A stretch of 14,362 bases of DNA from a bacterium (GCA_030596105.1 JAUVKU010000019.1:1-14362), one strand, 5' to 3'; counted from the stretch's first letter, positions 66 through 11,704 are shown. The notes: generated by a model not told the origin, from the letters alone. Made by a program: numbers and translations.

Positions 66-1316
66 ATGCTTAAACCAAGAAAAATAGCTAAAATTATAAA
101 AAAATGGTTGCCTGAAAATGAATTTATTATTCTAAATGGCCCCAGACAAGTTGGCAAAACATCATTATTAAAAATATTAATGCAGGAATTAAAAAATAAT
201 AATATTCCTGAAAATAGAATATTTTATTTAAATTTTGAAGAAATCCAGATTTTAGAAAAAATAAATCAAAATCCGGAAAATTTATTAGATTATATTATTG
301 ATAAAAACAAAAAAAACTACTTTTTTATTGACGAAATACAGTATCTGGATAATCCTTCTAATTTTTTAAAACATATATATGATAAATATTCTTCAATTAT
401 AAAAATAATCGCTACCGGCTCATCCAGCCTGGAATTAAAAGCAAAATTCCAGGATTCGCTTGTGGGCAGAAAAGTTTCTTTTAATATTTTACCTCTTGAT
501 TATGAAGAATTTTTAATCTTTAAAAATTATAATGATCTTAATCATTTGGATAAAAATAATATTCCTTTGGAAATTAAATTAAAATACGATAAATTATTAA
601 AAGAATATTTAATTTATGGCGGAATGCCGGCAGTCGCGCTTCAGGATGATGCTATAAAAAAAGAAAAACTTCTTAGTGAATACGTTGATACCTACATTAA
701 TAAGGATATTAGGTCAATCGGCAGGATAGAAAATATTTCCAAATTTAATTCAATCTTAAAAATACTATGTTCACAAATTGGAAACCTGCTTAATATTAAT
801 GAACTATCAAACACAACTAACATCCCCAGAAGAAAAATTGAAAAATATTTAGATTTATTAAAACATACCTTTGTGCTTGATATAATTGATCCGTATAAAA
901 ATAATATCCGATCGCAGGTTTCTAAAATGCCCAAGACTTTCTTTTTTGACCTGGGCATTAGAAATGCTATTTTAAATAATTTTTTAGATCTGTCCGGCCG
1001 TCAGGATGATGCCGGACGCTTATTTGAAAATTTTGTTTTTTTGGAATTAAAAAATTTATATCAAAAAAATATTTATTTTTACCGCACGGTAAATAAATCC
1101 GAGATTGACTTTATTATTGAAAAAAATAATAAATTGTCATTAATTGAAGTAAAATATAAATCACTTAATAAACGAATTAATACGCGCGTTATTGCTAATT
1201 TTATTGATCATTCAAAGATCAGCGCCAAAGCAAGCCTTATTAATCTAAGTTTAATTGGCGAATTTAATAATGTTAGCTATATTGATTACAGAAAATTAGC
1301 AAAAAAAATAAAGTAG
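66..1316 (+). CDS. AAA+ ATPase of the DUF4143/COG1373 family, with an N-terminal P-loop ATPase and a C-terminal PD-(D/E)xK-like putative nuclease domain.
   Basis: 416-aa ORF with Walker A GPRQVGKTS and Walker B-like FFIDEIQ. C-terminal EIDFII...IEVKYK matches the D...ExK motif typical of the DUF4143 restriction-endonuclease-like fold. It is paralogous to the ORF at 2458-3615. Confidence 0.85.
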   Translation: MLKPRKIAKIIKKWLPENEFIILNGPRQVGKTSLLKILMQELKNNNIPENRIFYLNFEEIQILEKINQNPENLLDYIIDKNKKNYFFIDEIQYLDNPSNFLKHIYDKYSSIIKIIATGSSSLELKAKFQDSLVGRKVSFNILPLDYEEFLIFKNYNDLNHLDKNNIPLEIKLKYDKLLKEYLIYGGMPAVALQDDAIKKEKLLSEYVDTYINKDIRSIGRIENISKFNSILKILCSQIGNLLNINELSNTTNIPRRKIEKYLDLLKHTFVLDIIDPYKNNIRSQVSKMPKTFFFDLGIRNAILNNFLDLSGRQDDAGRLFENFVFLELKNLYQKNIYFYRTVNKSEIDFIIEKNNKLSLIEVKYKSLNKRINTRVIANFIDHSKISAKASLINLSLIGEFNNVSYIDYRKLAKKIK

Positions 1317-1736: not shown

Positions 1737-2015
1737 ATGAAATATTACGATTGGGATAATAAAAAAAATGAAAAATTAAAATTAGAACGAGATATTTGCT
1801 TTGAAGATATTATAGTTGCTATTGACGATAATGGCCTTTTAGATATAATTCAGCACGCAAACATAAAAAAATATCCAAATCAAAAAATATTCATAATAAA
1901 TATAAATAATTACGCGTATTTAATCCCTTTTATAGAAAATAAAGACAAAATATTTTTAAAAACAATTATTCCAAGCCGTAAGGCAACTAAAAAATATATA
2001 TTAAATGTAAAATAA
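1737..2015 (+). CDS. brnT: BrnT-family toxin (DUF497 ribonuclease toxin of the BrnT/BrnA type II TA system).
   Basis: 92-aa ORF. The C-terminal motif IIPSRKATKKY matches the conserved BrnT IISARKA(T/S)KKE(R) signature. It is immediately followed by the antitoxin gene with a 1-nt gap, the toxin-first order typical of BrnTA. Confidence 0.75.
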   Translation: MKYYDWDNKKNEKLKLERDICFEDIIVAIDDNGLLDIIQHANIKKYPNQKIFIININNYAYLIPFIENKDKIFLKTIIPSRKATKKYILNVK

Positions 2016-2016
2016 T

Positions 2017-2289
2017 ATGAAATATTATACTTTGGACAAAGAAGAAAAAAATATTACTAAAGACTTTGATTCTGATAAATTTGTTAGCATACAAAAATTA
2101 AAATCAGCTAAAGCAAAATATAAGCAATACGCTAAAACGACTTTAAGTAAGACGAAAAATATAAATATTAGATTATCTGAAAAAGATTTGCAAAAAATTA
2201 AAGCAAAGGCAATTGAAAAAGGCATCCCTTATCAAACTTTGTTAACCTCTCTTATTCATCAATGCGCAAGCAATAAAATTAAAGTCTAA
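2017..2289 (+). CDS. brnA: BrnA-family antitoxin (CopG/RHH-like, COG3514).
   Basis: 90-aa ORF. The C-terminal motif KAIEKGIPYQTLLTSLIHQ matches the BrnA G(I/Y)QT(L/R)IN..LR consensus. It is tightly coupled to brnT. Confidence 0.7.
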   Translation: MKYYTLDKEEKNITKDFDSDKFVSIQKLKSAKAKYKQYAKTTLSKTKNINIRLSEKDLQKIKAKAIEKGIPYQTLLTSLIHQCASNKIKV

Positions 2290-2417: not shown

Positions 2418-2460
2418 GCTGACCATATAGCGGTCAGCTATTTTGTTTTGGCTTTGTTTA
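2418..2460. repeat. Copy 2 of the hairpin repeat (GCTGACC-atatagc-GGTCAGC + TATTTTGTTTTGGCTTTGTTTA). Its tail supplies the stop codon of the minus-strand ATPase gene.
   Basis: Same stem and tail as copies 1, 3 and 4. The ATPase2 stop (TAA on the minus strand, 2460-2458) lies in the element tail. Confidence 0.8.
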
Positions 2461-3615
2461 GGAGATAAAATCTAAATAATTTTTTGGGGTAATGACTTTA
2501 AATTCGGCATTGTCATATGTGTCAAACCATAACTTGAGCGGTTTAACTTTTTTCTTAACATTCCATTTGAATTCATAACCATACAATTTACCATCTCTCT
2601 CTTCTATTAGGTCAATTTCTTTTTTGTCCCATGTTCGCCAGAAATATTGATTGGCATAAATTCGTTTATATGTCCGTGTTTTCATTCTTTCCAAAAAAAT
2701 AAAATTCTCCCACAATTGGCCGATATCATTGCGTAAATTAATAGCGTTAAAATTTTCTATAATCGCGTTTCTAATACCAATATCCAAGAAAAAATATTTA
2801 TCTTTTTTGGATATTTCTTTGCGTAAATTTCGACTAAACCCGCTCACACTCACAATAACAAAAGCCTTTTCCAATAAATCCAAATATCTGGCAACTGTCT
2901 TGTAGTCAATGTTTAAACTGTTGCTTAATTCTGTCAAAGATACTTCATTGCCGATTTGCCAGGCCAAAAGCTGTAATAAATCCCGTAAAATCTTTGGGCT
3001 TTTCGTCTTTTCCAAGGCTAAAACATCCTTTAATAAATATGAATCTGTGATTTCCATAAGTGCTTCCCTCTTTTTTCTATCTGTTTCGGCTGTAAGAACC
3101 TCCGGATAACAGCCAAAAAGCAATAATTGCTCTAACAGTTCATTTTGTAATTGATGCGGCGTGTAATATTTAGACAACTCTAAAACAGACAAAGGAAATA
3201 ATGTGTATGTGCGCTTTCTGCCTACTAATGGCTCTCCGATCTGACCGGCCAGCTCAAATGACGCTGAGCCGGTAACAATAATTTTAATATTTTCAACATG
3301 ATCAACAATGATCTTAAGGCCAAGGCCTATGTTGGGAATATTTTGCGCTTCATCAATAATCAATAATTCATAATCTTTGGCAAAACTAATTAAGCCATCA
3401 AAATCCGGCTCACTAAATATTGTCTTTAATTTCATATCATCTCCGGTGCTTTGAAAAGTTTTTAAAGTATTTTTTTCAGTAAAAATCTTTAGCAAGCTTG
3501 TTTTGCCTGCTTGCCTGGGGCCATATATTACCAAAACTTTTTGCGGCTGAAGCAATGAATTTAGATTATGCGCGCGATCAAAATATTGAATTTGCTTTTG
3601 AATTTGTAAAGACAT
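2458..3615 (-). CDS. AAA+ ATPase of the DUF4143/COG1373 family (P-loop ATPase plus PD-(D/E)xK-like C-terminal domain). Paralog of the gene at 66-1316.
   Basis: 385-aa ORF with Walker A GPRQAGKTS, Walker B LLIIDEAQ and C-terminal EIDLIEE...YEFKW (D...ExK). Collinear similarity to ORF 66-1316 across the full length. Confidence 0.85.
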   Translation of the reverse strand: MSLQIQKQIQYFDRAHNLNSLLQPQKVLVIYGPRQAGKTSLLKIFTEKNTLKTFQSTGDDMKLKTIFSEPDFDGLISFAKDYELLIIDEAQNIPNIGLGLKIIVDHVENIKIIVTGSASFELAGQIGEPLVGRKRTYTLFPLSVLELSKYYTPHQLQNELLEQLLLFGCYPEVLTAETDRKKREALMEITDSYLLKDVLALEKTKSPKILRDLLQLLAWQIGNEVSLTELSNSLNIDYKTVARYLDLLEKAFVIVSVSGFSRNLRKEISKKDKYFFLDIGIRNAIIENFNAINLRNDIGQLWENFIFLERMKTRTYKRIYANQYFWRTWDKKEIDLIEERDGKLYGYEFKWNVKKKVKPLKLWFDTYDNAEFKVITPKNYLDFIS

Positions 3616-3853: not shown

Positions 3854-4435
3854 CTATTTGTTAAAATAATTTTTTTCTACAAAATCAATTCCTGCTAAAG
3901 TGTTTTTTTCTTTTACAATTTCTCTTGCTCTTTTTGGGCTTAACCAATTTATCTCATAAAATTCTTCCAACACTTTATCAGCATCAGGCTTAAAGCTGTC
4001 TTTATCAACCTTAATAAAATACCAAATATCATAATGACGCTTACATGTTTGTTTGGATGGATTGTTAATTTTAGTAATAGTAAGTAAAGCCGGGTTTTTA
4101 ATCTCAAACATACTTATATCTAGCCCCCACTCCTCGTTAATTTCTCTCCGCAAGGCCTTACTCATTGTTTCTCCTTTATCAATATGTCCGCCATTAAACA
4201 GCCATAACCCGGATTTTTTATGGTGTCCAATAAAAACCTGTTTAGACTTTGGGTCATAAGCGGCAAAATAAACACAAAAATGACTCTCAGAATTTTCCTG
4301 AATTGTGAGCTTGTTTTTCTCAATTCTTTTTAAAAAACTTGCTACAATTGGGCTGTGGTTAAAACCGGCCAATAACTCTTCTAGCTCCTTAGATAAATTT
4401 TTATTAGCATTTGTCATTTTTTTATCTTTAACCAT
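3854..4435 (-). CDS. Nudix-family hydrolase.
   Basis: 193-aa ORF with a clear Nudix box, GGHIDKGETMSKALRREINEEWG (GX5EX7REUXEEXGU). Confidence 0.8.
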   Translation of the reverse strand: MVKDKKMTNANKNLSKELEELLAGFNHSPIVASFLKRIEKNKLTIQENSESHFCVYFAAYDPKSKQVFIGHHKKSGLWLFNGGHIDKGETMSKALRREINEEWGLDISMFEIKNPALLTITKINNPSKQTCKRHYDIWYFIKVDKDSFKPDADKVLEEFYEINWLSPKRAREIVKEKNTLAGIDFVEKNYFNK

Positions 4436-4493
4436 TTAAAATTATTTTATAACTTAATTCAAATATAGCAAAAGAAAGAGCTTGGAGCAAATA

Positions 4494-5468
4494 ATGACAA
4501 AAATTCTTATTTTTGATAAAATCAAATTAATACTAAAATCATTTTTTATGAAAAATTATCTATTACGAATTGAAAAAATAAAAAAGCAATGCGCTATTTC
4601 CGAGAAAGAGCGCTTTACAGCCGCTCCCAGCGGCACTAATTATAAAGTTTTTCTTTCAAATAGTTATGTTATCCGTTTTCGGGATGACAACACTGAGCTT
4701 TTATTAGAAGAAGTTAATTTTTTAAAACAACTTAAACATAAACTAATACCAAAAATTTTGTGGTCAGGAAAAATTGATCAATCATTCTTTATAGTTGAAA
4801 ATAGACTCCTGGGACAAACAATAGATTCAGTTTGGAAAAATCTTTCAATAAATAATAAAAATAATATAATTGAGCAGGTTGTTAAATTTTTACAGTATCA
4901 GAGAACTCAAACAAAAAATTATGTTTACTCAGTAAAAACAGGCAAAAAATATAAAAATTTTTTAGATTATCTCACAGACGGTATAAAGCAAAAAAATATT
5001 GATATCAAAAAATTTAAGCAAGCAAATAAATTATTAAATGATTTATTTTTAATTATTAATGACCCTAAAATAAAACAATTATTTTCCACTAAGACAAAGG
5101 CGGCCTTAGTTCACGGCGATCTTATTATTCATAACTTGCTTACAGATGGTAAAAATCTAACCGGAGTCCTTGATTGGGAGCTGGCACTATGGGGCGATCC
5201 TGAACATGACCTTTTTCGGCTTTTTTATTATCAAGAATGCGCTAAAGCCTACCAGGAACAAGGCACTGATGAAACATTTGAGGCTGATTATATGGACAAG
5301 CTAACCACAGCGATTTTGAAATCAAATCTGATAGAAGATAAAAAAATATTCCAGAAAAAATATCAATTTGTACGCGCTATTTTTTATCTCAACGCGCTTC
5401 ATTGGGCAGTAAATTCAGATAATCCAAAAAGAAATATCAATGAGCTTACAGGGCGGTGGGATAAATAA
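4494..5468 (+). CDS. Kinase of the aminoglycoside/choline/MTR-kinase (APH, PF01636-like) phosphotransferase family. Substrate unknown.
   Basis: Catalytic-loop motif HGDLIIHNLL and the DWE motif (VLDWELALWGD) are present. The ATG at 4494 is preceded by GGAG (4484-4487). The track ORF starts 4 codons earlier at TTG 4482. Confidence 0.7.
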   Translation: MTKILIFDKIKLILKSFFMKNYLLRIEKIKKQCAISEKERFTAAPSGTNYKVFLSNSYVIRFRDDNTELLLEEVNFLKQLKHKLIPKILWSGKIDQSFFIVENRLLGQTIDSVWKNLSINNKNNIIEQVVKFLQYQRTQTKNYVYSVKTGKKYKNFLDYLTDGIKQKNIDIKKFKQANKLLNDLFLIINDPKIKQLFSTKTKAALVHGDLIIHNLLTDGKNLTGVLDWELALWGDPEHDLFRLFYYQECAKAYQEQGTDETFEADYMDKLTTAILKSNLIEDKKIFQKKYQFVRAIFYLNALHWAVNSDNPKRNINELTGRWDK

Positions 5469-5487
5469 TAGACAAATTAAAAAAATT

Positions 5488-5916
5488 ATGAAAACAAATA
5501 ATCAAATTGAAGTAATAATCTTCAAGAAAAATCAGGAAACAGGCCTTAAATATTTAATGCTAAAACGCAACCTTCAAAAAGGTGGCTTTTGGCAACCAAT
5601 CACCGGGAATGTAGAGGTTGGTGAAACGTTTAAGCAAGCTGCGACACGTGAACTTAGAGAAGAAACCGGCATTACAAAATTTATAAAAATTTTTGACACT
5701 GGTTATTCATTTGATTTTTTTGATGACAATCGTAATCAACATGAAAAAATTTTTGCTGTTGAAGTTTCCCATAATACAAAAATAAATCTATCAGCTGAAC
5801 ACACCGAGTTTCAATGGGCCACGGAAAATGAATGTCTCACAAAATATTTAAAATATCCAGGCAATATAGCCGGACTAAAAACTTTAGCAAAAATATTGGA
5901 GGCTGAAAATAAATAA
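5488..5916 (+). CDS. Nudix-family hydrolase (second copy in the window).
   Basis: Nudix box GNVEVGETFKQAATRELREETGI. The ATG at 5488 avoids overlap with the upstream kinase. The alternative ATG at 5440 would overlap it by 29 nt, and neither has a good SD. Confidence 0.7.
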   Translation: MKTNNQIEVIIFKKNQETGLKYLMLKRNLQKGGFWQPITGNVEVGETFKQAATRELREETGITKFIKIFDTGYSFDFFDDNRNQHEKIFAVEVSHNTKINLSAEHTEFQWATENECLTKYLKYPGNIAGLKTLAKILEAENK

Positions 5917-6188: not shown

Positions 6189-6255
6189 AAATTTGTATTT
6201 GGTGAGGCGCTAACAATAAATACGCAAAATATTCACAAATAAACTTACGAGTGGC

Positions 6256-6353
6256 TTTACAAAAAGCTAAACAAATGCTATAGTATTTCGAACCACAAGG
6301 TAGTCTTAAAAAAGTGAAAAGATCTTATACAATTTTAAAAAAAGGAGGATAAA
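6256..6353 (+). promoter_or_regulatory. Promoter and leader L1: TTTACA (6256-6261), 17-nt spacer, TGcTATAGT (-10 at 6279-6284), a ~60-nt leader, then SD AAGGAGG (6341-6347). About 85% identical to the promoter and leader of the convergent SerRS operon (L2).
   Basis: Direct comparison with the reverse complement of 10968-11075. The -35, spacer, -10, leader core (...CCAAG.TAGTCTT...AAAAGATCTT.TACAATTT.AAAAAAGGAGG) and SD are all conserved. Confidence 0.7.
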
Positions 6354-7577
6354 ATGGGATATAAACAAAAGTATTCTGAAATTGTTAATTTAGAAGCCGT
6401 AAATGAATTTATGACTGAAAGAGGATGGCAAAGGCGCTCGTGTGATACATGTGGTAGGACTTTTTTCTCTAAACCATCTACCAAAATTGATGTATCGATA
6501 TGTGGCTGGCATAAGTGCAATAAAGGACATTATCAATTCTGTACTTACTCCAAGCGTAAAAAGATGCTAGAACCTGTGCAAATTAGCTCAAAGATGAGTA
6601 AATATTTCCGCTCAGTCGGTTTCGAGCTAATAACACCTCGGAACATCGCTAATTTCAAAGGTCAGACTGACTTGGTCATCGCTGGTGTACAAATATTCGA
6701 TGATGTCATCCATCATAACCAAAAAATCTGCAAAGACAAAATGTTCGTGGTGCAACCATGTGTACGTATGCAATTCCAACCGCATGTCGAGTCACAAGAA
6801 GGGACATCGACATCTTTCGTAAACGTATGTACTGAAAATATGGAAGTAAATTTTAGAGAACATCTACAATTAGTAGATCACTGGTGTACGATTCTCTCAA
6901 AACTCGGACTTCACATGAACGATTTCATTATTACTATAAGAACATCAGTCAAAGACTGGGGGACCGGAAAATTCTCAGCACTTGAGCTCTTTTTCTCCTA
7001 CGGAGGACTCGAGCTTGGAGATGCCACCTATCTACTTATTCCCCAAGCGAGCCGGTCGGCTATCTCGATTAGTGATATTGGATTCGGACTCGAAAGAATT
7101 GTTTGGGCTATCAACAAAACCGATTCCTACTTCGATACGCTAATTCCTTGGACAGCGAATGGCACGCGTGAAATGTTCGACTCATGTCGAACGCTTGCGC
7201 TTCTGATTCTTTGTGGAGTACAGGCAACAAACAAGGGTCCAGGCCTCCAGTTTAGACGATTTGCAAAAGTGATTAGTGGAAAATACTACGGTGCGAATAT
7301 ATATGGCATTTTAAGGTATTATTTCGATTACTGGGCTCAATTCATTGAGCCGTCTATCAGCCGAGAATCCGCCATTCATCTCGCTCGTTTGGAGATCGAA
7401 AGATTCGTCAATCTGAAAATCTATAAAACTTTAAAACTCCCATCGCCTCGTGATGAAACGACAGAAACCTATTTCAATCGTTTGGTGTATACTTACAATA
7501 TCAACATTTATAAATTGCGTAAAGCAATGCAGGACGTGTTACCAAATGCCGAAAATCAGTACATTTCCAATTCTTAG
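6354..7577 (+). CDS. Paralog of the alanyl-tRNA synthetase catalytic (aminoacylation) domain. Truncated at 407 aa, with no tRNA-recognition, editing or C-Ala domains. It has a Cys/His-rich N-terminal extension (CDTCGR...ICGWHKCNKGH...C).
   Basis: Collinear matches to AlaRS N-terminal motifs. FRSVGFELITP..DLVIAGVQIFDDV resembles FL.FF.SKGH..V.SSSLVP.NDPTLLFTNAGMNQFKDVF. QPCVR matches the motif-2 region QRCVR. DIGFGLERIVWAINKTDSYFDT matches DTGMGLERIAAVLQ..NYD.DLF. LLILCGVQATNKGPGLQFRRFAKV matches FLIADGV.PSNEGRGYVLRRIIRR. The strong SD AAGGAGGataaaATG supports the start. Confidence 0.75.
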   Translation: MGYKQKYSEIVNLEAVNEFMTERGWQRRSCDTCGRTFFSKPSTKIDVSICGWHKCNKGHYQFCTYSKRKKMLEPVQISSKMSKYFRSVGFELITPRNIANFKGQTDLVIAGVQIFDDVIHHNQKICKDKMFVVQPCVRMQFQPHVESQEGTSTSFVNVCTENMEVNFREHLQLVDHWCTILSKLGLHMNDFIITIRTSVKDWGTGKFSALELFFSYGGLELGDATYLLIPQASRSAISISDIGFGLERIVWAINKTDSYFDTLIPWTANGTREMFDSCRTLALLILCGVQATNKGPGLQFRRFAKVISGKYYGANIYGILRYYFDYWAQFIEPSISRESAIHLARLEIERFVNLKIYKTLKLPSPRDETTETYFNRLVYTYNINIYKLRKAMQDVLPNAENQYISNS

Positions 7578-7644
7578 CGGCTTAAATAAGCTAAAAAATG
7601 GAAAACAATCAAAAATAGTCGTTTAGCAACAGTCCCCTATAAAC

Positions 7645-8340
7645 ATGCAAAACATAAAGGAGCACAATCGAATATATTTGTCGGGGGGTGGTAATGAGAA
7701 ACAATCATTTCCCCTCGACAAATTTTTTTTTCGTACATTGCCTAAAAATGGACGCTTTTTATATATACCTATAGCACTCCGTGGCCATAAGCTTTATGCC
7801 ACAACACGTTTTTGGATGAAGGGTATCACAAAATTTCACAAAAGAATAGATGTTCAGTTTGAAACAATGGATAATCCGTCAAAATATCAACTTAAAGATT
7901 TAAAAAAGTTTGATGGAATATATATAGGTGGTGGCAATACATGGAGCTTAATTCAAGAATTTAAAAACTCTGGATTAGCTAATATTTTGATTCAGTACAT
8001 TAAAGCCGGGGGTCATATATATGGAGGAAGTGCGGGAGCAATTATTATGGGGAAAAGAATTGACACTCACGATGATGAAAATAAAATGAATATAAAAGAT
8101 GTGTCTGGCTTTAATATCCTTAATAATTTTTCGATAACCTGTCATTTTACAGATGAACAAAGTAATAGATTTAAAGCATGGGCTATAAATAATAACTTAC
8201 CAATTATTTGCTTATCAAAAGAAACCGGCCTAATTATAGAAAAAAACGTCGCTTTATGCGTTGGCACTAAACCTTGCATTATTTATTTTGCCGATGGCAC
8301 AAAACTGAAAGTTACTCCTAAAAAATCTTTTAATCTATAA
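7645..8340 (+). CDS. Peptidase family S51 (PepE alpha-aspartyl dipeptidase / cyanophycinase-like).
   Basis: GIYIGGGNTWSLI matches PepE IIVGGGNTFQLL. GHIYGGSAGAII matches the catalytic Ser motif YIGWSAGANL. TCHF matches the catalytic His region NPHF. Confidence 0.75.
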   Translation: MQNIKEHNRIYLSGGGNEKQSFPLDKFFFRTLPKNGRFLYIPIALRGHKLYATTRFWMKGITKFHKRIDVQFETMDNPSKYQLKDLKKFDGIYIGGGNTWSLIQEFKNSGLANILIQYIKAGGHIYGGSAGAIIMGKRIDTHDDENKMNIKDVSGFNILNNFSITCHFTDEQSNRFKAWAINNNLPIICLSKETGLIIEKNVALCVGTKPCIIYFADGTKLKVTPKKSFNL

Positions 8341-8343
8341 AAA

Positions 8344-8372
8344 AGTACCCATATCTTAACGACATGGGTACT
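8344..8372. terminator. Bidirectional rho-independent-like terminator between the convergent operons: AGTACCCAT-N11-ATGGGTACT, with an A-run 5' and an AT-rich tract 3'.
   Basis: Perfect 9-bp inverted repeat (8344-8352 and 8364-8372). It sits in the 43-bp gap between the convergent stops at 8340 and 8384. Confidence 0.6.
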
Positions 8373-8383
8373 GAAATAATTAT

Positions 8384-9643
8384 TTAAAACAAATTTAATT
8401 CTCCTTTCACAATCTTCTGAGTAGTCTTGTTAATGTCGGCCAAATTGCGTTCGACAATCGCTTCGATCATCTGACGCTGATTAGACATTACTTTTTCACC
8501 ACAGACTTCAACACATGCAAACCATGGATTTGACAGACTTCTGCCCATCTGGGATGTCAGATATACATATGTTTCAAGTCCAATGAAACGATAAATCTCA
8601 TCAGAAATCAAAGAACAGATGGCGGTGTAAAGCTTGCCCACATGATAGACAGGATTCTTACCACAACAAGCCTCCATGCTCATATGCCGGGTAAATGGAA
8701 TAACGCCATTATGCCGATTACCTCGACCAACGACACCTTCGTCGCCACTCTCAATAGCGCTTCCCGTCAATGTGAGATAATAATCCGATTTGTTCAAGTT
8801 GTCTCTCGTGTTAAGCGAAACAGTGACATCGAACTGCCCAAACTTAGATACTACCAATTGCTTAATAAAATCTTCAAGGAATTGGAGCTTCTTAAAATAG
8901 AACTCCTTATCTGGGGTATAGACTGCAATAAACGGAATACAAACAGTGATACCTAAACGCTTTTTCATACGTTTGACCATTACCTTAATATCTGTGCCAA
9001 CATAGGGATAAAGCTTTTTGAACTCCTTCTCATTCAACGTGGTCTCAATGAACATCACGATTTTCTCGGTGGTGCTAAGAGGGCTATAAGCCACAGCCGT
9101 CGAGGTATCGTTGGAGCGCAGGTTGTTATCATGAAAAATCGCAAACTCCTTCTGTGGAATCTCAAAAAAGAACTGGCGTTCATTCTGTGTCGATCCATCA
9201 GCTTCGTATACAACACCGGGACCAGGCGCGCAATGAGTATTATCAACGATTGTGAGCCATTGATCCAGATCAAGAAGCGGCAGGACATTAACAAAATGCT
9301 TATAGACCGTCTCTTTGACAATCTTAAGATAAGGAATGTCTTCTTGCTGATAAGTTCTAGTAAACCGGCAGTTGAGATAAAGCCTAATCGGTTTTTGCAT
9401 CTCACCGCCACCGAACTTGACCTTTGTGGCACCACCCGACAATGCAATCTTGTCAACCATGTGCCGCAAGATGATACCATAGCGTTTTAAACAGTATTGT
9501 GAATACGCTTGAGACACTTTTTCTGCAATTGTGTCACAGAGAGTGTCAGGATGACCGATGCCTTTGCGTTCGACGATCTCAAATTCTGTGTTGTTGATGC
9601 TAGGCGTTCCTGACGAATAAACGAGTAAATTTTCTTTGTCCAT
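8384..9643 (-). CDS. S-adenosylmethionine synthetase, archaeal type (MAT; PF01941 family).
   Basis: GIGHPDTLCD matches the archaeal MAT GxGHPDSxCD. LTGSAIESGDEGVVGRGNRHNGVIPFTRHMSMEACCGKNPVYHVGKLY matches the archaeal MAT signature LTG(T)SAE.GDDG.VGRGNR.NGLI.P.R.MSMEAA.GKNPV.HVGKIY. Strong SD (AAAGGAGGtaataaATG) 34 nt downstream of the serS stop, so the two are co-transcribed. Confidence 0.85.
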   Translation of the reverse strand: MDKENLLVYSSGTPSINNTEFEIVERKGIGHPDTLCDTIAEKVSQAYSQYCLKRYGIILRHMVDKIALSGGATKVKFGGGEMQKPIRLYLNCRFTRTYQQEDIPYLKIVKETVYKHFVNVLPLLDLDQWLTIVDNTHCAPGPGVVYEADGSTQNERQFFFEIPQKEFAIFHDNNLRSNDTSTAVAYSPLSTTEKIVMFIETTLNEKEFKKLYPYVGTDIKVMVKRMKKRLGITVCIPFIAVYTPDKEFYFKKLQFLEDFIKQLVVSKFGQFDVTVSLNTRDNLNKSDYYLTLTGSAIESGDEGVVGRGNRHNGVIPFTRHMSMEACCGKNPVYHVGKLYTAICSLISDEIYRFIGLETYVYLTSQMGRSLSNPWFACVEVCGEKVMSNQRQMIEAIVERNLADINKTTQKIVKGELNLF

Positions 9644-9677
9644 TTATTACCTCCTTTATAGGAATGTTAACCCAAAA

Positions 9678-10967
9678 TTAAAATTTTCTAGCTTTCGGTT
9701 TGATATATTGCAATCCTGTGTAATCTTGTAAAATTTCAGGAATTAACACTGTTCCGTCGGCCTGCTGGTTATTCTCGAGGATGGCGAGTATCGTTCGAGT
9801 AACAGCCACAGCTGTGCCATTGAGAGTATGAACGAAGTCGATCTTGCCAGTCACCCTATTCTTAAATTTAGTGTTCAATCGGCGTGCCTGGAAATCCGTA
9901 CAATTAGATGCAGAGGTTACTTCGCCGTATCCGCCACCTTCGCCGATAAAAGGCATCCATGCCTCAATATCATACTTTCGGTAAGCAGGCGTTCCGAGAT
10001 CGCCCTTGCACATAAGTAAAACTCGGTAAGGAAGCTCCAGTGCTTGGTAAAATTCTTCTTCAATCGCAAGCATCTCTTCGTGAACGATTGCACTTTTGTC
10101 TGGATGAACAAACTGATAAAGCTCAACTTTACTAAACTGGTGCACACGGTAGAGACCCTTACTTTCTCGACCACCACTTCCTGCTTCTGTCCTGAAACAG
10201 TGGCTGACACCCGAAATCTTGATTGGAAGATTTTTTTCCGGAATCACAGCATTAGCCATATAACCACCAAGAGTAATTTCAGAGGTGCCTATAAGGCTTA
10301 ATGCCCCTTTGGTCAGAGAATAAATTTGACTTTCAGGACCTCGCGGAGAGAATCCGGAAGCAGTGATGATCTTGTCACGAGCAATCTCCGGTGTCGTCAC
10401 CGGAGTAAACCCATGCTTAATTGCCAATTCTAACGCATAGCGAATAAGACCGAGCTCCAGAAGAACAGCTTCGTTCTTTAAAAAATAAAATTTGGAGCCA
10501 GTGACTTTTGCTGCTGCCTCGAAATCCAGGATATCCAATTTTTTGCCTAACTCGACGTGATCAAGTGGCTTGAAACCAAACTTAGTGGGCTCTCCGATGT
10601 ATTTAATAGGAACATTTCCGTATTCATCCTTGCCCTGTGGTACGTCCGATGCAACAAGATTAGGTATCTTAAGCATCTCCTCAGTGTACTCGTTTTCCAC
10701 AAACACAATCTCATCCTTAATGACCGCTATAGTTTGTTTGAGACCAACTACCTCTGCCTTGAGTTGTTTGCGAGTTGTCTTATCAGCACTCTTGAACCGT
10801 CCAGCAATCTGATTGGAACGACGCTGAATTTCTTCAAGACTCTGTCGCTTTTGTTTCAGTTGTCCATAAAGAGTAACTACTTTATCGACATCCACATTAG
10901 CATAGCGTTCACGCGTGTTCTGTTTAATTAAATCAACGTTTTTAAGAATAAATCTAATATCCAACAT
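9678..10967 (-). CDS. serS: Seryl-tRNA synthetase. Full length, with an N-terminal coiled-coil plus class II catalytic core.
   Basis: 429 aa. The motif-2/3 regions SHCFRTEAGSGGRESKGLYRVHQF, LELPYRV, GDLG and HTLNGTAVAVTRTILAILENNQ are typical of SerRS. SD AAGGAGG is upstream. Confidence 0.9.
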   Translation of the reverse strand: MLDIRFILKNVDLIKQNTRERYANVDVDKVVTLYGQLKQKRQSLEEIQRRSNQIAGRFKSADKTTRKQLKAEVVGLKQTIAVIKDEIVFVENEYTEEMLKIPNLVASDVPQGKDEYGNVPIKYIGEPTKFGFKPLDHVELGKKLDILDFEAAAKVTGSKFYFLKNEAVLLELGLIRYALELAIKHGFTPVTTPEIARDKIITASGFSPRGPESQIYSLTKGALSLIGTSEITLGGYMANAVIPEKNLPIKISGVSHCFRTEAGSGGRESKGLYRVHQFSKVELYQFVHPDKSAIVHEEMLAIEEEFYQALELPYRVLLMCKGDLGTPAYRKYDIEAWMPFIGEGGGYGEVTSASNCTDFQARRLNTKFKNRVTGKIDFVHTLNGTAVAVTRTILAILENNQQADGTVLIPEILQDYTGLQYIKPKARKF

Positions 10968-11075
10968 AACATATTCCTCCTTTTTTGAAATTGTAAAAGA
11001 TCTTTTTATCTCTCCAAGACTATCTTGGAATTCAAAATACTATAGCATTTGTTTGGTTTTTTGTAAAGTCAAATT
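10968..11075 (-). promoter_or_regulatory. Promoter and leader L2 for the serS-MAT operon: -35 TTTACA (plus 11062-11067), 17-nt spacer, -10 TGcTATAGT (plus 11039-11044), and a leader with a CCAAGA-TAGT-TCTTGG hairpin and SD AAGGAGG. Duplicate of L1.
   Basis: The reverse complement aligns base-for-base with 6256-6350 at roughly 85% identity. Confidence 0.7.
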
Positions 11076-11407: not shown

Positions 11408-11704
11408 TCAAACAAATAAATATATTCCCCCTAAAAATTGTTCGGCATCAAAATGGTGCTGGGCTATATCTTATTCTTTAGGCTCATCGGGTAGTGCGGG
11501 TCTGATATTGATAGTAAACATAAGTAAAAACCGCGTTAATTATCAGTATCAGACCCGAACAAGCATGGGGATGCATAGGTAATATATTGAACTCAAAAAA
11601 ATATTTACCGCTACTACCCGATAAGCGTGGAGAATAAAAAAACTGGAGGGAGTGATTCACCGCGAATCGCCCTTTGACAACTAAATAAAAAATGGAAGGA
11701 AAAG
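11408..11704 (+). ncRNA. Long structured 5' leader or candidate cis-regulatory RNA of unassigned family. An outer helix ATCGGGTAGTGCGG (11485-11498) / CCGCtACTACCCGAT (11609-11623) encloses a 16-bp hairpin GGGTCTGATATTGATA (11497-11512) / TATCAGTATCAGACCC (11539-11554). A possible long-range TCCCC (11426-11430) / GGGGA (11567-11571) pairing is also present.
   Basis: Complementarities were found by eye. The segment is roughly 300 nt with no convincing ORF (track ORF 11373-11582 begins at the promoter -35). The GC-rich pairing segments stand out against the AT-rich background. Confidence 0.35.

What the first reader, a model, noticed from the sequence alone, without database searches (positions are those of the whole stretch)
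6256..11075. Candidate four-gene module: AlaRS-like enzyme, S51 Asp-dipeptidase-like peptidase, SerRS and archaeal-type SAM synthetase
The convergent pair of co-regulated operons groups two amino-acid-adenylating enzymes (SerRS and the AlaRS-like paralog) with a SAM-forming enzyme and an S51 peptidase. The S51 family (PepE, cyanophycinase) cleaves alpha/beta-aspartyl peptide-like bonds. Gene sets like this, with an extra or paralogous aaRS, an adenosyl donor and an aminoacyl-bond hydrolase, recur in pathways that make or resist aminoacyl-nucleoside antimetabolites. Examples are albomycin and a second SerRS, microcin C and aminoacyl-adenylate-cleaving peptidases, and ascamycin. They also recur in tRNA-dependent small-molecule biosynthesis, where VlmL-type SerRS paralogs are used. 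The function here is unknown. The grouping may instead be a streamlined-genome housekeeping cluster.
Basis: inference. Interest (0 to 1): 0.75.

Follow-up and report, generated by a model that had tools for sequence, protein, structure and literature searches.

The report
Conserved AlaRS-like four-gene cassette
Four neighbouring genes form a cassette that is kept together in about a hundred genomes of ultra-small bacteria and archaea: an undescribed cut-down relative of alanyl-tRNA synthetase, a serine hydrolase, a SAM synthetase and seryl-tRNA synthetase. The cassette most likely attaches a small amino acid to something other than a protein chain.

Summary

I compared 86 non-identical AlaL loci from Patescibacteria and DPANN archaea with unrelated flanks. 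In window-type loci, S51 is adjacent in 35/35, archaeal-type MetK in 20/21 and SerRS in 12/16. Three different SerRS lineages sit beside AlaL.

Fusion proteins link the parts: AlaL::S51, AlaL::SAM-methyltransferase and S51::GT4. Deep relatives add GT4, PIG-L deacetylase, inositol-phosphate synthase, phosphatases and radical-SAM genes, which is the gene logic of mycothiol synthesis. In the window, a 100-nt inverted repeat puts the same promoter and leader in front of both operons.

My best reading is a non-ribosomal aminoacyl-transfer module. The closest precedent is ascamycin: AcmF is a truncated AlaRS-like transferase, AcmD a dedicated aaRS and AcmE a hydrolase. The donor, acceptor and product are inferred, not shown. 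I could not test whether these genomes carry a second serS, a second metK or a canonical alaS.

The antimetabolite and resistance part is neither shown nor excluded.

The parts
6252..6351 (+). Left arm of the 100-nt inverted repeat. It holds a promoter-like TTTACA-17-TGnTATAGT (6256-6284), a short 5' leader and the GGAGG ribosome-binding site of the AlaL-S51 operon.
   Evidence: 80% complementary to 10972-11071. The leader is not detectably structured.
6354..7577 (+). AlaL: a stand-alone AlaRS-like protein. It has an N-terminal Cys zinc-finger-like motif (C30, C33, C50, C55), a class II catalytic core and a basic helical domain. It has no editing domain and no C-Ala domain.
7645..8340 (+). S51-family serine hydrolase. 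It is the partner of AlaL.
   Evidence: Conserved motifs: nucleophile GGSAGA, CH[FY] His and PE[ET][ST]G Glu. In 45 relatives its start overlaps the AlaL stop by 13 nt. It is fused to AlaL in P0432.
8344..8372 (.). Hairpin (12 pairs) with a T-run, between the convergent ends of S51 and MetK. Terminator-like; the scan called it on the minus strand.
   Evidence: spacer sequence.
8384..9643 (-). Archaeal-type methionine adenosyltransferase (MetK). It belongs to a cassette-specific sub-lineage with an insertion of about 18 aa.
9678..10967 (-). Full-length seryl-tRNA synthetase with the N-terminal tRNA-binding arm. It belongs to a cassette-specific sub-lineage.
10972..11071 (-). Right arm of the inverted repeat. 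It holds the same promoter-like site (11067-11039), leader and ribosome-binding site, here in front of the SerRS-MetK operon.

Best explanation
The four genes form one functional cassette for non-ribosomal aminoacyl transfer.

Shown:
- AlaL descends from archaeal-type AlaRS. It keeps only the catalytic core and part of the acceptor-binding helical region.
- AlaL keeps the class II motif 2 Arg, the motif 3 GLER and the Asp that holds the amino-acid amine. The pocket position that is Asn212 in bacterial AlaRS is an invariant Asp in AlaL.
- AlaL is translationally coupled to, and in some relatives fused with, an S51 hydrolase whose Ser-His-Glu motifs are intact.
- AlaL, S51, an archaeal-type MetK and, usually, a SerRS stay together across about 100 loci.
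- In the window, both operons carry the same promoter and leader.

Inferred:
- AlaL, together with S51, loads a small amino acid (Ser, Ala or Gly in size) onto a non-tRNA acceptor.
- The donor is one of two things. It may be Ser-tRNA(Ser) made by the neighbouring SerRS, as AcmD feeds AcmF in ascamycin synthesis. Or it may be an adenylate that AlaL makes itself, as MshC does.
- S51 either passes the aminoacyl group on through an acyl-enzyme intermediate or hydrolyses it (an AcmE-like role).
- MetK supplies SAM for tailoring, or SAM (an adenosyl compound) is itself the acceptor.
- In deep relatives the acceptor is probably a GlcN-inositol-type glycoside built by GT4, PIG-L, Ino1 and phosphatases. 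In the window-type cassette the acceptor genes are not adjacent and the acceptor is unknown.
For: - Catalytic residues are invariant across sequences only 26-40% identical.
- Synteny, counting only loci with enough DNA on both sides: S51 35/35, MetK 20/21 and SerRS 12/16 in window-type loci; S51 12/13, MetK 8/8 and GT4 7/8 in deep relatives.
- Fusions: AlaL::S51 (P0432), AlaL::class I SAM methyltransferase (P0454), and S51::GT4 (L039, L040).
- Three SerRS lineages, 28-41% identical to each other, sit beside AlaL, some with overlapping stop and start codons.
- L110 joins a window-lineage SerRS with MetK, two S51 genes, GT4 and PIG-L.
- MetK and SerRS sub-lineages are found only in cassettes in every context sampled.
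- Shared promoter/leader inverted repeat in the window, and longer ones in L087, L058, L024 and L081.
- Precedents: AcmF/AcmD/AcmE (PMC12945691) and MshA-D (PMC7278568).
- The N-terminal and helical domains of AlaL are basic, pI about 9.5.
Against: - No acceptor-building gene (GT4, PIG-L, Ino1) lies within 10 kb of any window-type cassette: 0/21 and 0/16.
- AlaL keeps the adenylation residues that AcmF has partly lost, so it need not depend on tRNA, and the SerRS link may have another cause.
- No dedicated tRNA gene recurs near the cassette.
- MetK and SerRS look fully functional and are better conserved than AlaL and S51, as expected for sole essential copies.
- No chemistry has been demonstrated. 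Amino acid, acceptor and product are all inferred.
Confidence: 0.5

Rival explanations
1. Xenologous housekeeping set. AlaL is a minimal true AlaRS that charges tRNA(Ala). S51 replaces the missing editing domain as a trans-acting hydrolase of mischarged Ser- or Gly-tRNA(Ala). MetK and SerRS are the only copies in these genomes. The block persists because one small clade inherited it after an archaeal transfer.
For: - AlaL keeps all core catalytic motifs and a basic helical domain that aligns with the AlaRS tRNA-recognition region.
- AlaRS fragments without editing and C-Ala domains are known, for example the 'small-AlaRS' preprint.
- MetK and SerRS look canonical and are very well conserved.
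- RuvB 65% against SerRS 71% between two cassette genomes is compatible with vertical descent.
Against: - AlaL scores 43.8 bits against a 744.7-bit AlaRS cutoff and has no Pfam tRNA-synt_2c hit.
- The family is rare: 32 of 185,579 species genomes matched its two motif patterns.
- S51 is fused to a GT4 glycosyltransferase, and AlaL to a SAM methyltransferase, in relatives. Deep relatives sit among GT4, PIG-L, Ino1, radical-SAM and carbamoyltransferase genes. None of this fits a translation factor.
- The pocket position that is Asn in bacterial AlaRS and Thr in archaeal AlaRS is an invariant Asp in AlaL.
Confidence: 0.15
2. The cassette makes or resists an aminoacyl-nucleoside antimetabolite. 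AlaL loads Ser or Ala onto an adenosyl compound derived from the MetK product. The cassette SerRS is a self-resistant second copy. S51 is the immunity or activation hydrolase.
For: - The ascamycin precedent pairs a truncated AlaRS-like transferase acting on an adenosine 5'-sulfamate held in the adenylate pocket with a dedicated aaRS and a hydrolase.
- MetK is a universal core partner, whereas methyltransferase and radical-SAM genes are only occasional.
- The adenine-stacking Phe and the motif 2 and 3 Arg residues are retained.
- The SerRS sub-lineage is confined to cassettes.
- The cassette often sits among accessory or defence-type genes and has higher GC than its left flank.
Against: - No gene for building a stable adenylate mimic is present.
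- There are no hits in the defence or immunity libraries.
- S51 has no signal peptide.
- The recurrent extra partners are sugar and inositol genes.
- A second serS or metK has not been shown.
Confidence: 0.15
3. AlaL is a non-catalytic regulatory aaRS paralogue, in the way HisZ regulates HisG. It senses a small amino acid and controls MetK or S51.
For: - AlaL is tightly coupled to S51 and MetK.
Against: - Full conservation of ATP- and amino-acid-binding residues over deep divergence argues for catalysis.
- Fusions are to enzymes (methyltransferase, S51), not to MetK.
Confidence: 0.05
4. Coincidental housekeeping neighbourhood in a streamlined genome.
For: SerRS and MetK are ordinary essential enzymes.
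Against: - The same four genes are linked in several different arrangements, with unrelated flanks, from Patescibacteria to DPANN archaea.
- For a genome of roughly 1,000 genes, the chance that a given gene lies within four genes of another is below 1% per locus (my estimate).
Confidence: 0.02

Closest known systems
Ascamycin AcmF / AcmD / AcmE (Streptomyces sp. 80H647; PMC12945691)
   Same: - AcmF is a truncated AlaRS-like protein with only the aminoacylation and tRNA-recognition domains.
- The motif 2 Arg is kept and the pocket Asn is replaced.
- It is encoded with a dedicated aaRS that supplies aminoacyl-tRNA and with a hydrolase that removes the aminoacyl group.
- AcmF also accepts Ser- and Gly-tRNA.
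   Different: - AlaL keeps the amine-binding Asp, which is Glu in AcmF, and keeps motif 3.
- The neighbouring aaRS is SerRS, not AlaRS.
- The hydrolase is an S51 enzyme, not an alpha/beta-hydrolase.
- There are no sulfamoyl-adenosine genes.
- AlaL carries the archaeal-AlaRS N-terminal Cys motif, so it probably arose independently.
- I could not compare the sequence with AcmF because no AcmF sequence was available.
MshC / BshC amino acid:glucosaminide ligases of mycothiol and bacillithiol synthesis (PMC7278568)
   Same: - An aaRS-derived, ATP-dependent ligase.
- It acts after a GT4 GlcNAc-transferase and a PIG-L/LmbE deacetylase, with inositol-phosphate synthase and a phosphatase. Exactly these genes accompany AlaL in the deep relatives and in L110.
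   Different: - MshC is a class I CysRS paralogue, whereas AlaL is a class II AlaRS paralogue.
- No Cys-selecting zinc site is evident in AlaL.
- The window-type cassette has no GT4, PIG-L or Ino1 nearby.
- MetK, S51 and SerRS have no counterpart in mycothiol synthesis.
Archaeal AlaRS catalytic fragment, and naturally shortened AlaRS ('small-AlaRS', bioRxiv 10.1101/2023.05.29.542759; split AlaRS of Nanoarchaeum, from my own knowledge)
   Same: - Same N-terminal Cys-rich motif.
- Same motifs 2 and 3.
   Different: - About 17-19% identity.
- It fails the AlaRS family thresholds.
- It lacks the editing domain that small-AlaRS retains.
- Its distribution is rare and patchy.
- Its partners and fusions belong to small-molecule metabolism.
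VlmL/VlmA (valanimycin) and other aa-tRNA-dependent natural-product steps
   Same: A SerRS encoded inside a biosynthetic cluster supplies Ser-tRNA to a transferase (from my own knowledge; the class is reviewed in PMC12945691).
   Different: The transferase there is not aaRS-like, and no such cluster is known from Patescibacteria or DPANN archaea.
S51 peptidases PepE, Lmo0363 and cyanophycinase
   Same: Pfam S51 membership and conserved Ser-His-Glu motifs.
   Different: - Far below the PepE equivalog threshold (59.8 against 156 bits).
- Always paired with, or fused to, AlaL or GT4.
- The substrate is unknown.

Membership tests
Canonical alanyl-tRNA synthetase (class IIc) | Catalytic core with the AlaRS fold and class II motifs 2 and 3 | tested here: met
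   [not shown]
Canonical alanyl-tRNA synthetase (class IIc) | Reaches the curated family score (Pfam tRNA-synt_2c; TIGR03683) | tested here: not met
   No Pfam hit. TIGR03683 gives 43.8 bits against a cutoff of 744.7.
Canonical alanyl-tRNA synthetase (class IIc) | Editing domain and C-Ala domain | tested here: not met
   The protein is 407 aa and ends after the helical domain. Homologues are 390-400 aa.
Canonical alanyl-tRNA synthetase (class IIc) | Charges tRNA(Ala) through recognition of the G3:U70 pair | not testable with these tools
   This needs an enzyme assay or a complex model. Only part of the recognition region is present (338 of 407 residues align to 3wqy).
AcmF-type aa-tRNA-dependent AlaRS-like transferases | Truncated architecture: aminoacylation plus tRNA-recognition domains only | tested here: met
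   compared with the description in PMC12945691.
AcmF-type aa-tRNA-dependent AlaRS-like transferases | Active-site substitutions that disable adenylate formation (N219Q, D232E) | tested here: inconclusive
   The Asn-equivalent position is an invariant Asp. The Asp-equivalent position and motif 3 are retained.
AcmF-type aa-tRNA-dependent AlaRS-like transferases | Encoded with a dedicated aaRS and an aminoacyl-cleaving hydrolase | tested here: met
   SerRS in 12/16 and S51 in 35/35 window-type loci. The aaRS is SerRS, not AlaRS.
AcmF-type aa-tRNA-dependent AlaRS-like transferases | Sequence homology to AcmF itself | not tested
MshC/BshC-type amino acid:GlcN-R ligase pathway | Clustered with a GT4 GlcNAc-transferase, a PIG-L deacetylase and inositol-phosphate synthase | tested here: inconclusive
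   Met in deep relatives and in L110 (GT4 7/8). Not met in the window or any window-type locus (0/21).
MshC/BshC-type amino acid:GlcN-R ligase pathway | The ligase is a CysRS (MshC) or BshC homologue | tested here: not met
   AlaL is a class II AlaRS-like protein.
Peptidase family S51 | Pfam score above threshold and Ser-His-Glu triad motifs | tested here: met
   PF03575 gives 86.5 bits against 23.9. The GGSAGA, CH[FY] and PE[ET][ST]G motifs are conserved in 30 sequences.
Peptidase family S51 | PepE or cyanophycinase equivalog | tested here: not met
   PepE 59.8 bits against 156. Cyanophycinase 32.3 bits against 126.6.
Archaeal-type methionine adenosyltransferase | Pfam PF01941 and conserved catalytic motifs | tested here: met
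   360.9 bits. Full-length alignment to P. furiosus MAT 6s81 with the GHPD, NDTS, GDxGxVGRGNR and GKNPVxHVGK motifs.
Archaeal-type methionine adenosyltransferase | NCBIfam equivalog score | tested here: not met
   324 bits against cutoffs of 435-577. The sub-lineage has its own insertion.
Seryl-tRNA synthetase | Equivalog score and N-terminal tRNA-binding arm | tested here: met
   TIGR00414 gives 468 bits against 302. PF02403 and PF00587 both hit.
Resistance or second-copy aaRS of an antibiotic cluster (albomycin type) | A second serS elsewhere in the same genome | not testable with these tools
   Only up to 10 kb either side of each match could be read.

The most novel reading that the evidence does not exclude
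AlaL, S51, MetK and SerRS make a metabolite class not yet known from Patescibacteria and DPANN episymbionts. The product would be a seryl (or alanyl) amide or ester on an adenosyl/SAM-derived or GlcN-inositol scaffold. AlaL would act as an archaeal-derived, tRNA-dependent aminoacyl transferase, and the cassette SerRS would be a dedicated donor supplier or a self-resistant copy. The product could be an aminoacyl-adenylate mimic, or a mycothiol-like cofactor, used in the interaction with the host cell.
Probability: 0.2. Interest if true: 0.9.

Novelty: new variant of a known kind. Interest (0 to 1): 0.72.

Why it matters
Few aaRS paralogues are known to have been recruited for non-translational chemistry (MshC, AcmF, SbzA, GluQRS, PoxA, AsnA), and each one revealed new biochemistry. 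AlaL is a sizeable, unannotated family with the following properties.

- It gives 478 hits at E ≤ 1e-3 and 238 at E ≤ 1e-30 among 50%-identity representatives.
- It has no Pfam model.
- It is labelled "hypothetical" wherever a name is given.
- It is confined largely to Patescibacteria and DPANN archaea, organisms with almost no known secondary or cofactor metabolism.

Its fixed partners are an S51 hydrolase, an archaeal MAT sub-lineage and SerRS. They give a four-protein system that can be reconstituted in vitro. This would test whether these ultra-small symbionts make an aminoacylated small molecule. It would also test whether tRNA-dependent aminoacyl transfer by an AlaRS-like enzyme arose a second time, independently.

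The cassette also records probable gene flow from archaea to bacteria. An archaeal-type MetK and an archaeal-AlaRS-derived gene sit beside a bacterial-type SerRS.

Tried and rejected
- **tRNA and Rfam scans of the window.** No tRNA gene was found. No RNA family passed the gathering threshold, and only two weak, unrelated hits appeared at E < 1. So no T-box or SAM riboswitch was detected.
- **The shared leaders as a riboswitch.** The fold energy is no better than for shuffled sequence. I rejected this idea.
- **Leader conservation.** A profile of the two leaders found no copy in the 43 loci held when it was run.
- **Defence-system reading.** None of the four proteins hits PADLOC. Only the flanking DUF4143 ATPase does.
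- **A dedicated tRNA next to the cassette.** None recurs.
- **afdb50 fold library.** Unavailable.
- **Literature searches.** I searched for AlaRS-like paralogues in CPR/DPANN and for archaeal MetK in CPR. They found no description of this family. One of them was badly framed and wasted.
- **HGT versus vertical descent.** RuvB is 65% identical against SerRS 71% and MetK 73% between two cassette genomes. This is not decisive.
- **An error I corrected.** My first type-B count scored GT4-only genes as S51::GT4 fusions. One search gives the corrected numbers.

Full report
**1. What is in the window**

The window is AT-rich: GC is 0.25-0.33 on the left flank and 0.40-0.43 for AlaL, MetK and SerRS (S51 0.32). 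At the reported coordinates there are two convergent gene pairs.

- 6354-7577 (+) encodes a 407-aa protein that I call AlaL.
- 7645-8340 (+) encodes a 231-aa S51-family hydrolase (PF03575, 86.5 bits).
- 8384-9643 (-) encodes a 419-aa archaeal-type methionine adenosyltransferase (PF01941, E 1e-107).
- 9678-10967 (-) encodes a full-length SerRS (TIGR00414, 468 bits against a cutoff of 302).

AlaL has no Pfam family. Its only sequence links are weak ones to the N-terminal third of archaeal AlaRS:

- TIGR03683: 43.8 bits against a cutoff of 744.7.
- PDB 2ztg residues 11-268: E 7e-7.

The window holds no tRNA gene and no Rfam family.

**2. The two operons share one control region**

Reading the sequence shows that these sites are part of a 100-nt inverted repeat, 6252-6351 / 10972-11071, 80% complementary. 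The repeat runs from the -35 element to the GGAGG ribosome-binding site in front of AlaL and in front of SerRS.

The same layout (AlaL> S51> <MetK <SerRS bracketed by inverted repeats) recurs elsewhere:

| Locus | Repeat length | Complementarity |
|---|---|---|
| L087 | 183 nt | 90% |
| L058 | 294 nt | 100% |
| L024 | 80 nt and 159 nt | 100% and 94% |
| L081 | 99 nt | 100% |

L080, L109, L025 and L008 have the same gene order but no such repeat. The leaders do not fold better than shuffled sequence. I therefore read them as duplicated promoters and 5' UTRs, not as riboswitches. A terminator-like hairpin with a T-run (8344-8372) separates the convergent ends.

**3. What AlaL is**

A search of 5.8 billion proteins found 180 homologues. 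Nearly all are 390-400 aa, the best 120 listed are 52-80% identical, none has a Pfam domain, and all that carry a name are called 'hypothetical'. The names come from Patescibacteria bins. A profile search of 1.84 billion 50%-identity representatives found 478 hits at E ≤ 1e-3 and 238 at E ≤ 1e-30.

The AlphaFold model is confident (pLDDT 84.5, pTM 0.84). Its structural matches are as follows.

- Foldseek's best match is A. fulgidus AlaRS (E 1e-16).
- It gives 23.4 to a bacterial AlaRS catalytic fragment.
- Every other class II enzyme scores 14.9 or less.

AlaL is therefore the AlaRS catalytic core plus part of the helical acceptor-binding region. It has no editing domain and no C-Ala domain.

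These features are invariant across the family, including members only 26-40% identical to the window protein:

- motif 2, QPxxR138;
- SFxN;
- E220-x-G-D223-A;
- S-D241-x-G-F-G-L-E-R248, which is motif 3 together with the Asp that holds the amino-acid amine in AlaRS.

The position that is Asn212 in bacterial AlaRS and Thr in A. fulgidus AlaRS is always Asp in AlaL. Window-type members also keep the CxxC...C motif found at the N-terminus of archaeal AlaRS. The N-terminal and helical parts are basic, with pI about 9.5.

**4. Synteny**

I collected loci in three ways:

- exact look-ups of homologues;
- a scan of one genome per GTDB species, which gave 32 loci among 185,579 genomes;
- a scan of JGI metagenomes, which gave 66 loci.

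After removing identical AlaL sequences, 86 loci remain. Of these, 62 are 'type A' (AlaL at least 37% identical to the window and closer to it than to L035), all from Patescibacteria bins. The other 24 are 'type B' (26-42% identical), from DPANN archaea (Nanoarchaeota, Woesearchaeota and unclassified archaea) and some bacteria.

Counting only loci with enough DNA on both sides:

| Partner within 4 genes | Type A | Type B |
|---|---|---|
| S51 | 35/35 | 12/13 |
| MetK | 20/21 | 8/8 |
| SerRS | 12/16 | 1/5 (4/24 of all type-B loci within four genes; L038 has one six genes away) |
| GT4 | 0/21 | 7/8 |
| Ino1, PIG-L | 0/16 | see section 7 |

SerRS appears in several arrangements: upstream and divergent 14 times, behind MetK 13 times, and others. 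The flanking genes are unrelated between loci. Some flanks are core genes, such as rplKA-nusG-secE or dnaA-dnaN. Others are accessory genes, such as CBASS, R-M, type IV secretion, toxin-antitoxin and reverse transcriptase genes.

In 45 type-A loci the S51 start overlaps the AlaL stop by 13 nt. The window is an exception, with a 67-nt spacer and a C-terminal extension on AlaL. Chance adjacency within four genes in a genome of about 1,000 genes would be below 1% per locus (my estimate). The 'coincidental neighbourhood' reading is refuted.

**5. The partners are cassette-specific lineages**

*MetK.* The MetK search gave about 120 clusters running smoothly from 85% to 61% identity, all about 419 aa. 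Their contig-length fingerprints match the AlaL list. Both contexts I looked up held the cassette. The cassette MetK has every MAT catalytic motif and aligns over its full length with P. furiosus MAT. Type A and type B MetKs share an insertion of about 18 aa (PG...RxF[WF]FExP) that the solved archaeal MAT lacks.

*SerRS.* The SerRS search gave about 88 clusters from 87% down to 58% identity. The 59% member (L110) is still in a cassette. The next relatives, at 53-54%, are not (L111, L112), and named hits at 50-55% are Proteobacteria and Spirochaetes. Three different SerRS lineages, 28-41% identical to one another, lie next to AlaL. Some have overlapping stop and start codons (L051 SerRS-MetK; L097 and L099 AlaL-SerRS). 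The SerRS link is therefore recurrent and is not a by-product of one transfer event.

**6. Fusion proteins tie the parts together**

- P0432 is AlaL::S51 (568 aa).
- P0454 is AlaL fused to a class I SAM-dependent methyltransferase (MTS 32.7 bits, TRM5/TYW2 30.3 bits). P0456 looks similar.
- P0449 is AlaL with an unassigned C-terminal domain of about 290 aa.
- S51 is fused to a GT4 glycosyltransferase in L039 and L040 (570 aa).

S51 is thus physically linked both to the amino-acid-handling enzyme and to a sugar transferase, and AlaL is linked to SAM chemistry. The S51 motifs for the nucleophile (GGSAGA), the His (CH[FY]) and the Glu (PE[ET][ST]G) are conserved in all 30 sequences aligned. I therefore treat S51 as an active hydrolase or acyl-transferase.

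**7. What the deep relatives add**

Type-B loci, and the bridging locus L110, carry the following next to MetK-AlaL-S51:

- GT4 glycosyltransferases;
- a PIG-L deacetylase, whose best NCBIfam hits are MshB and Mca;
- inositol-3-phosphate synthase;
- inositol monophosphatase or histidine phosphatase;
- radical-SAM enzymes;
- SAM methyltransferases;
- a NodU/CmcH-type carbamoyltransferase;
- small-molecule kinases.

The series Ino1, then GT4, then a phosphatase, then a deacetylase, then an aaRS-derived ligase is the logic of mycothiol synthesis (PMC7278568). The difference is that the ligase here is AlaRS-derived rather than CysRS-derived. None of these sugar or inositol genes lies within 10 kb of any type-A cassette, and that includes the window.

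**8. Closest published precedent**

In ascamycin biosynthesis, AcmF is a truncated AlaRS-like protein with only the aminoacylation and tRNA-recognition domains. It keeps the motif 2 Arg and carries the N219Q and D232E substitutions. AcmF transfers alanine from Ala-tRNA onto an adenosine 5'-sulfamate bound in the adenylate pocket. The Ala-tRNA is made by AcmD, a dedicated AlaRS in the cluster. A hydrolase, AcmE, removes the alanyl group. AcmF also accepts Ser- and Gly-tRNA (PMC12945691).

AlaL + SerRS + S51 has the same three-part shape. This is the only reading I found that explains why SerRS keeps turning up. However, AlaL retains the amine-binding Asp and motif 3, so it may still form an adenylate itself.

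**9. Best explanation and rivals**

*Shown:*
- an AlaRS-derived stand-alone enzyme with an intact active-site framework;
- tight coupling to, and fusion with, an S51 hydrolase;
- near-obligate linkage to an archaeal-type MAT sub-lineage;
- frequent linkage to SerRS;
- a shared promoter in the window.

*Inferred:* the unit transfers a small amino acid to a non-tRNA acceptor.
- The donor is Ser-tRNA(Ser), or an adenylate that AlaL makes itself.
- S51 relays or trims the aminoacyl group.
- SAM is used for tailoring, or SAM is the acceptor.
- In deep relatives the acceptor is a GlcN-inositol-type glycoside.

I give this general statement 0.5.

*Rivals:*
- a minimal housekeeping AlaRS with S51 as a trans-editing factor (0.15). 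The fusions to GT4 and to a methyltransferase, the failed AlaRS thresholds and the rarity of the family argue against it;
It is compatible with the AcmF analogy and with MetK being core, but no nucleoside-modifying genes are present and no second serS has been shown;
- a HisZ-like regulatory paralogue (0.05);
- coincidence (0.02).

**10. What could not be settled**

No tool let me read whole genomes. Whether cassette genomes have a canonical alaS, a second serS or a bacterial-type metK therefore remains untested.

Between two cassette genomes, RuvB is 65% identical, against SerRS 71%, MetK 73%, AlaL 58% and S51 52%. This is compatible with vertical descent inside one clade. The higher GC of the cassette and its accessory-type flanks in the window are compatible with transfer. 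Neither point is decisive.

I found no paper describing this family. The 'small-AlaRS' of CPR and DPANN in a 2023 preprint retains an editing domain and is a different protein.

**11. Verdict**

It is an undescribed AlaRS-paralogue family with fixed partners, shared between Patescibacteria and DPANN archaea.

It is a new variant of a known kind, namely aaRS paralogues recruited for non-ribosomal aminoacyl transfer. The specific antimetabolite and resistance interpretation remains a hypothesis.

Interest: 0.72.

Noticed in passing
window 11465-11645: A 181-nt nested palindrome lies in the 737-bp spacer between the SerRS promoter and the SPFH gene. It folds to -72.9 kcal/mol (z -10.6 against shuffles). 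It has no Rfam hit and no copy in any fetched locus. It could be a structured RNA or a MITE-like element.
   Followed up: partly
window 6252-6351 / 10972-11071; also L087 1706-1888 / 6382-6564, L058 1-294 / 4822-5115, L024 823-902 / 5430-5509: The whole four-gene cassette is bracketed by inverted repeats of 100-294 nt, up to 100% identical. This could reflect gene conversion, an invertible segment or a mobile unit, as well as shared regulation.
   Followed up: partly
window 66-1316 and 2458-3615: Two paralogous AAA_14 + DUF4143 ATPases. The first matches the candidate defence family PDC-S01 in PADLOC (307 bits).
   Followed up: partly
window 1737-2289: A BrnT-like toxin and a CopG-like antitoxin form a pair between the two ATPases. 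The region has very low GC (0.21-0.25).
   Followed up: no
window 4482-5468 and 5440-5916; L047 4327-5301: An APH-family kinase overlaps a NUDIX hydrolase just upstream of AlaL, and a second NUDIX gene lies at 3854-4435. A weak APH-like kinase (E 0.001) also follows S51 in the distant locus L047, so the kinase might belong to the pathway.
   Followed up: no
window 7540-7644: The window's AlaL has a C-terminal extension and a 67-nt gap before S51. In 45 relatives the two genes overlap by 13 nt, which suggests a recent change at the junction.
   Followed up: no
window 8790-8960 (MetK residues about 135-175); L035, L037 and other loci: Cassette MetKs of both types share an insertion of about 18 aa (PG...RxF[WF]FExP) that is absent from P. 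furiosus MAT. It may correspond to the active-site gating loop (my recollection, not checked). It may alter substrate access or mediate binding to partners.
   Followed up: partly
L111 3593-12629: In an unrelated bacterium, a SerRS (53% identical to the window's) sits inside an operon-like run of genes: UDP-sugar dehydrogenase, epimerase, oxidoreductases, ATP-grasp ligase, M20 peptidase and formyltransferase. This is another SerRS in a cluster that looks biosynthetic.
   Followed up: no
L042 14829-15040; L091 7847-8058: Two tRNA-Ser genes (GCU and UGA) lie directly beside the cassette SerRS, in this one lineage only.
   Followed up: no
L110 144-797 and 5262-5897: The bridging locus has two S51 genes, one next to AlaL and one between MetK and GT4. 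This hints at two distinct S51 roles.
   Followed up: no
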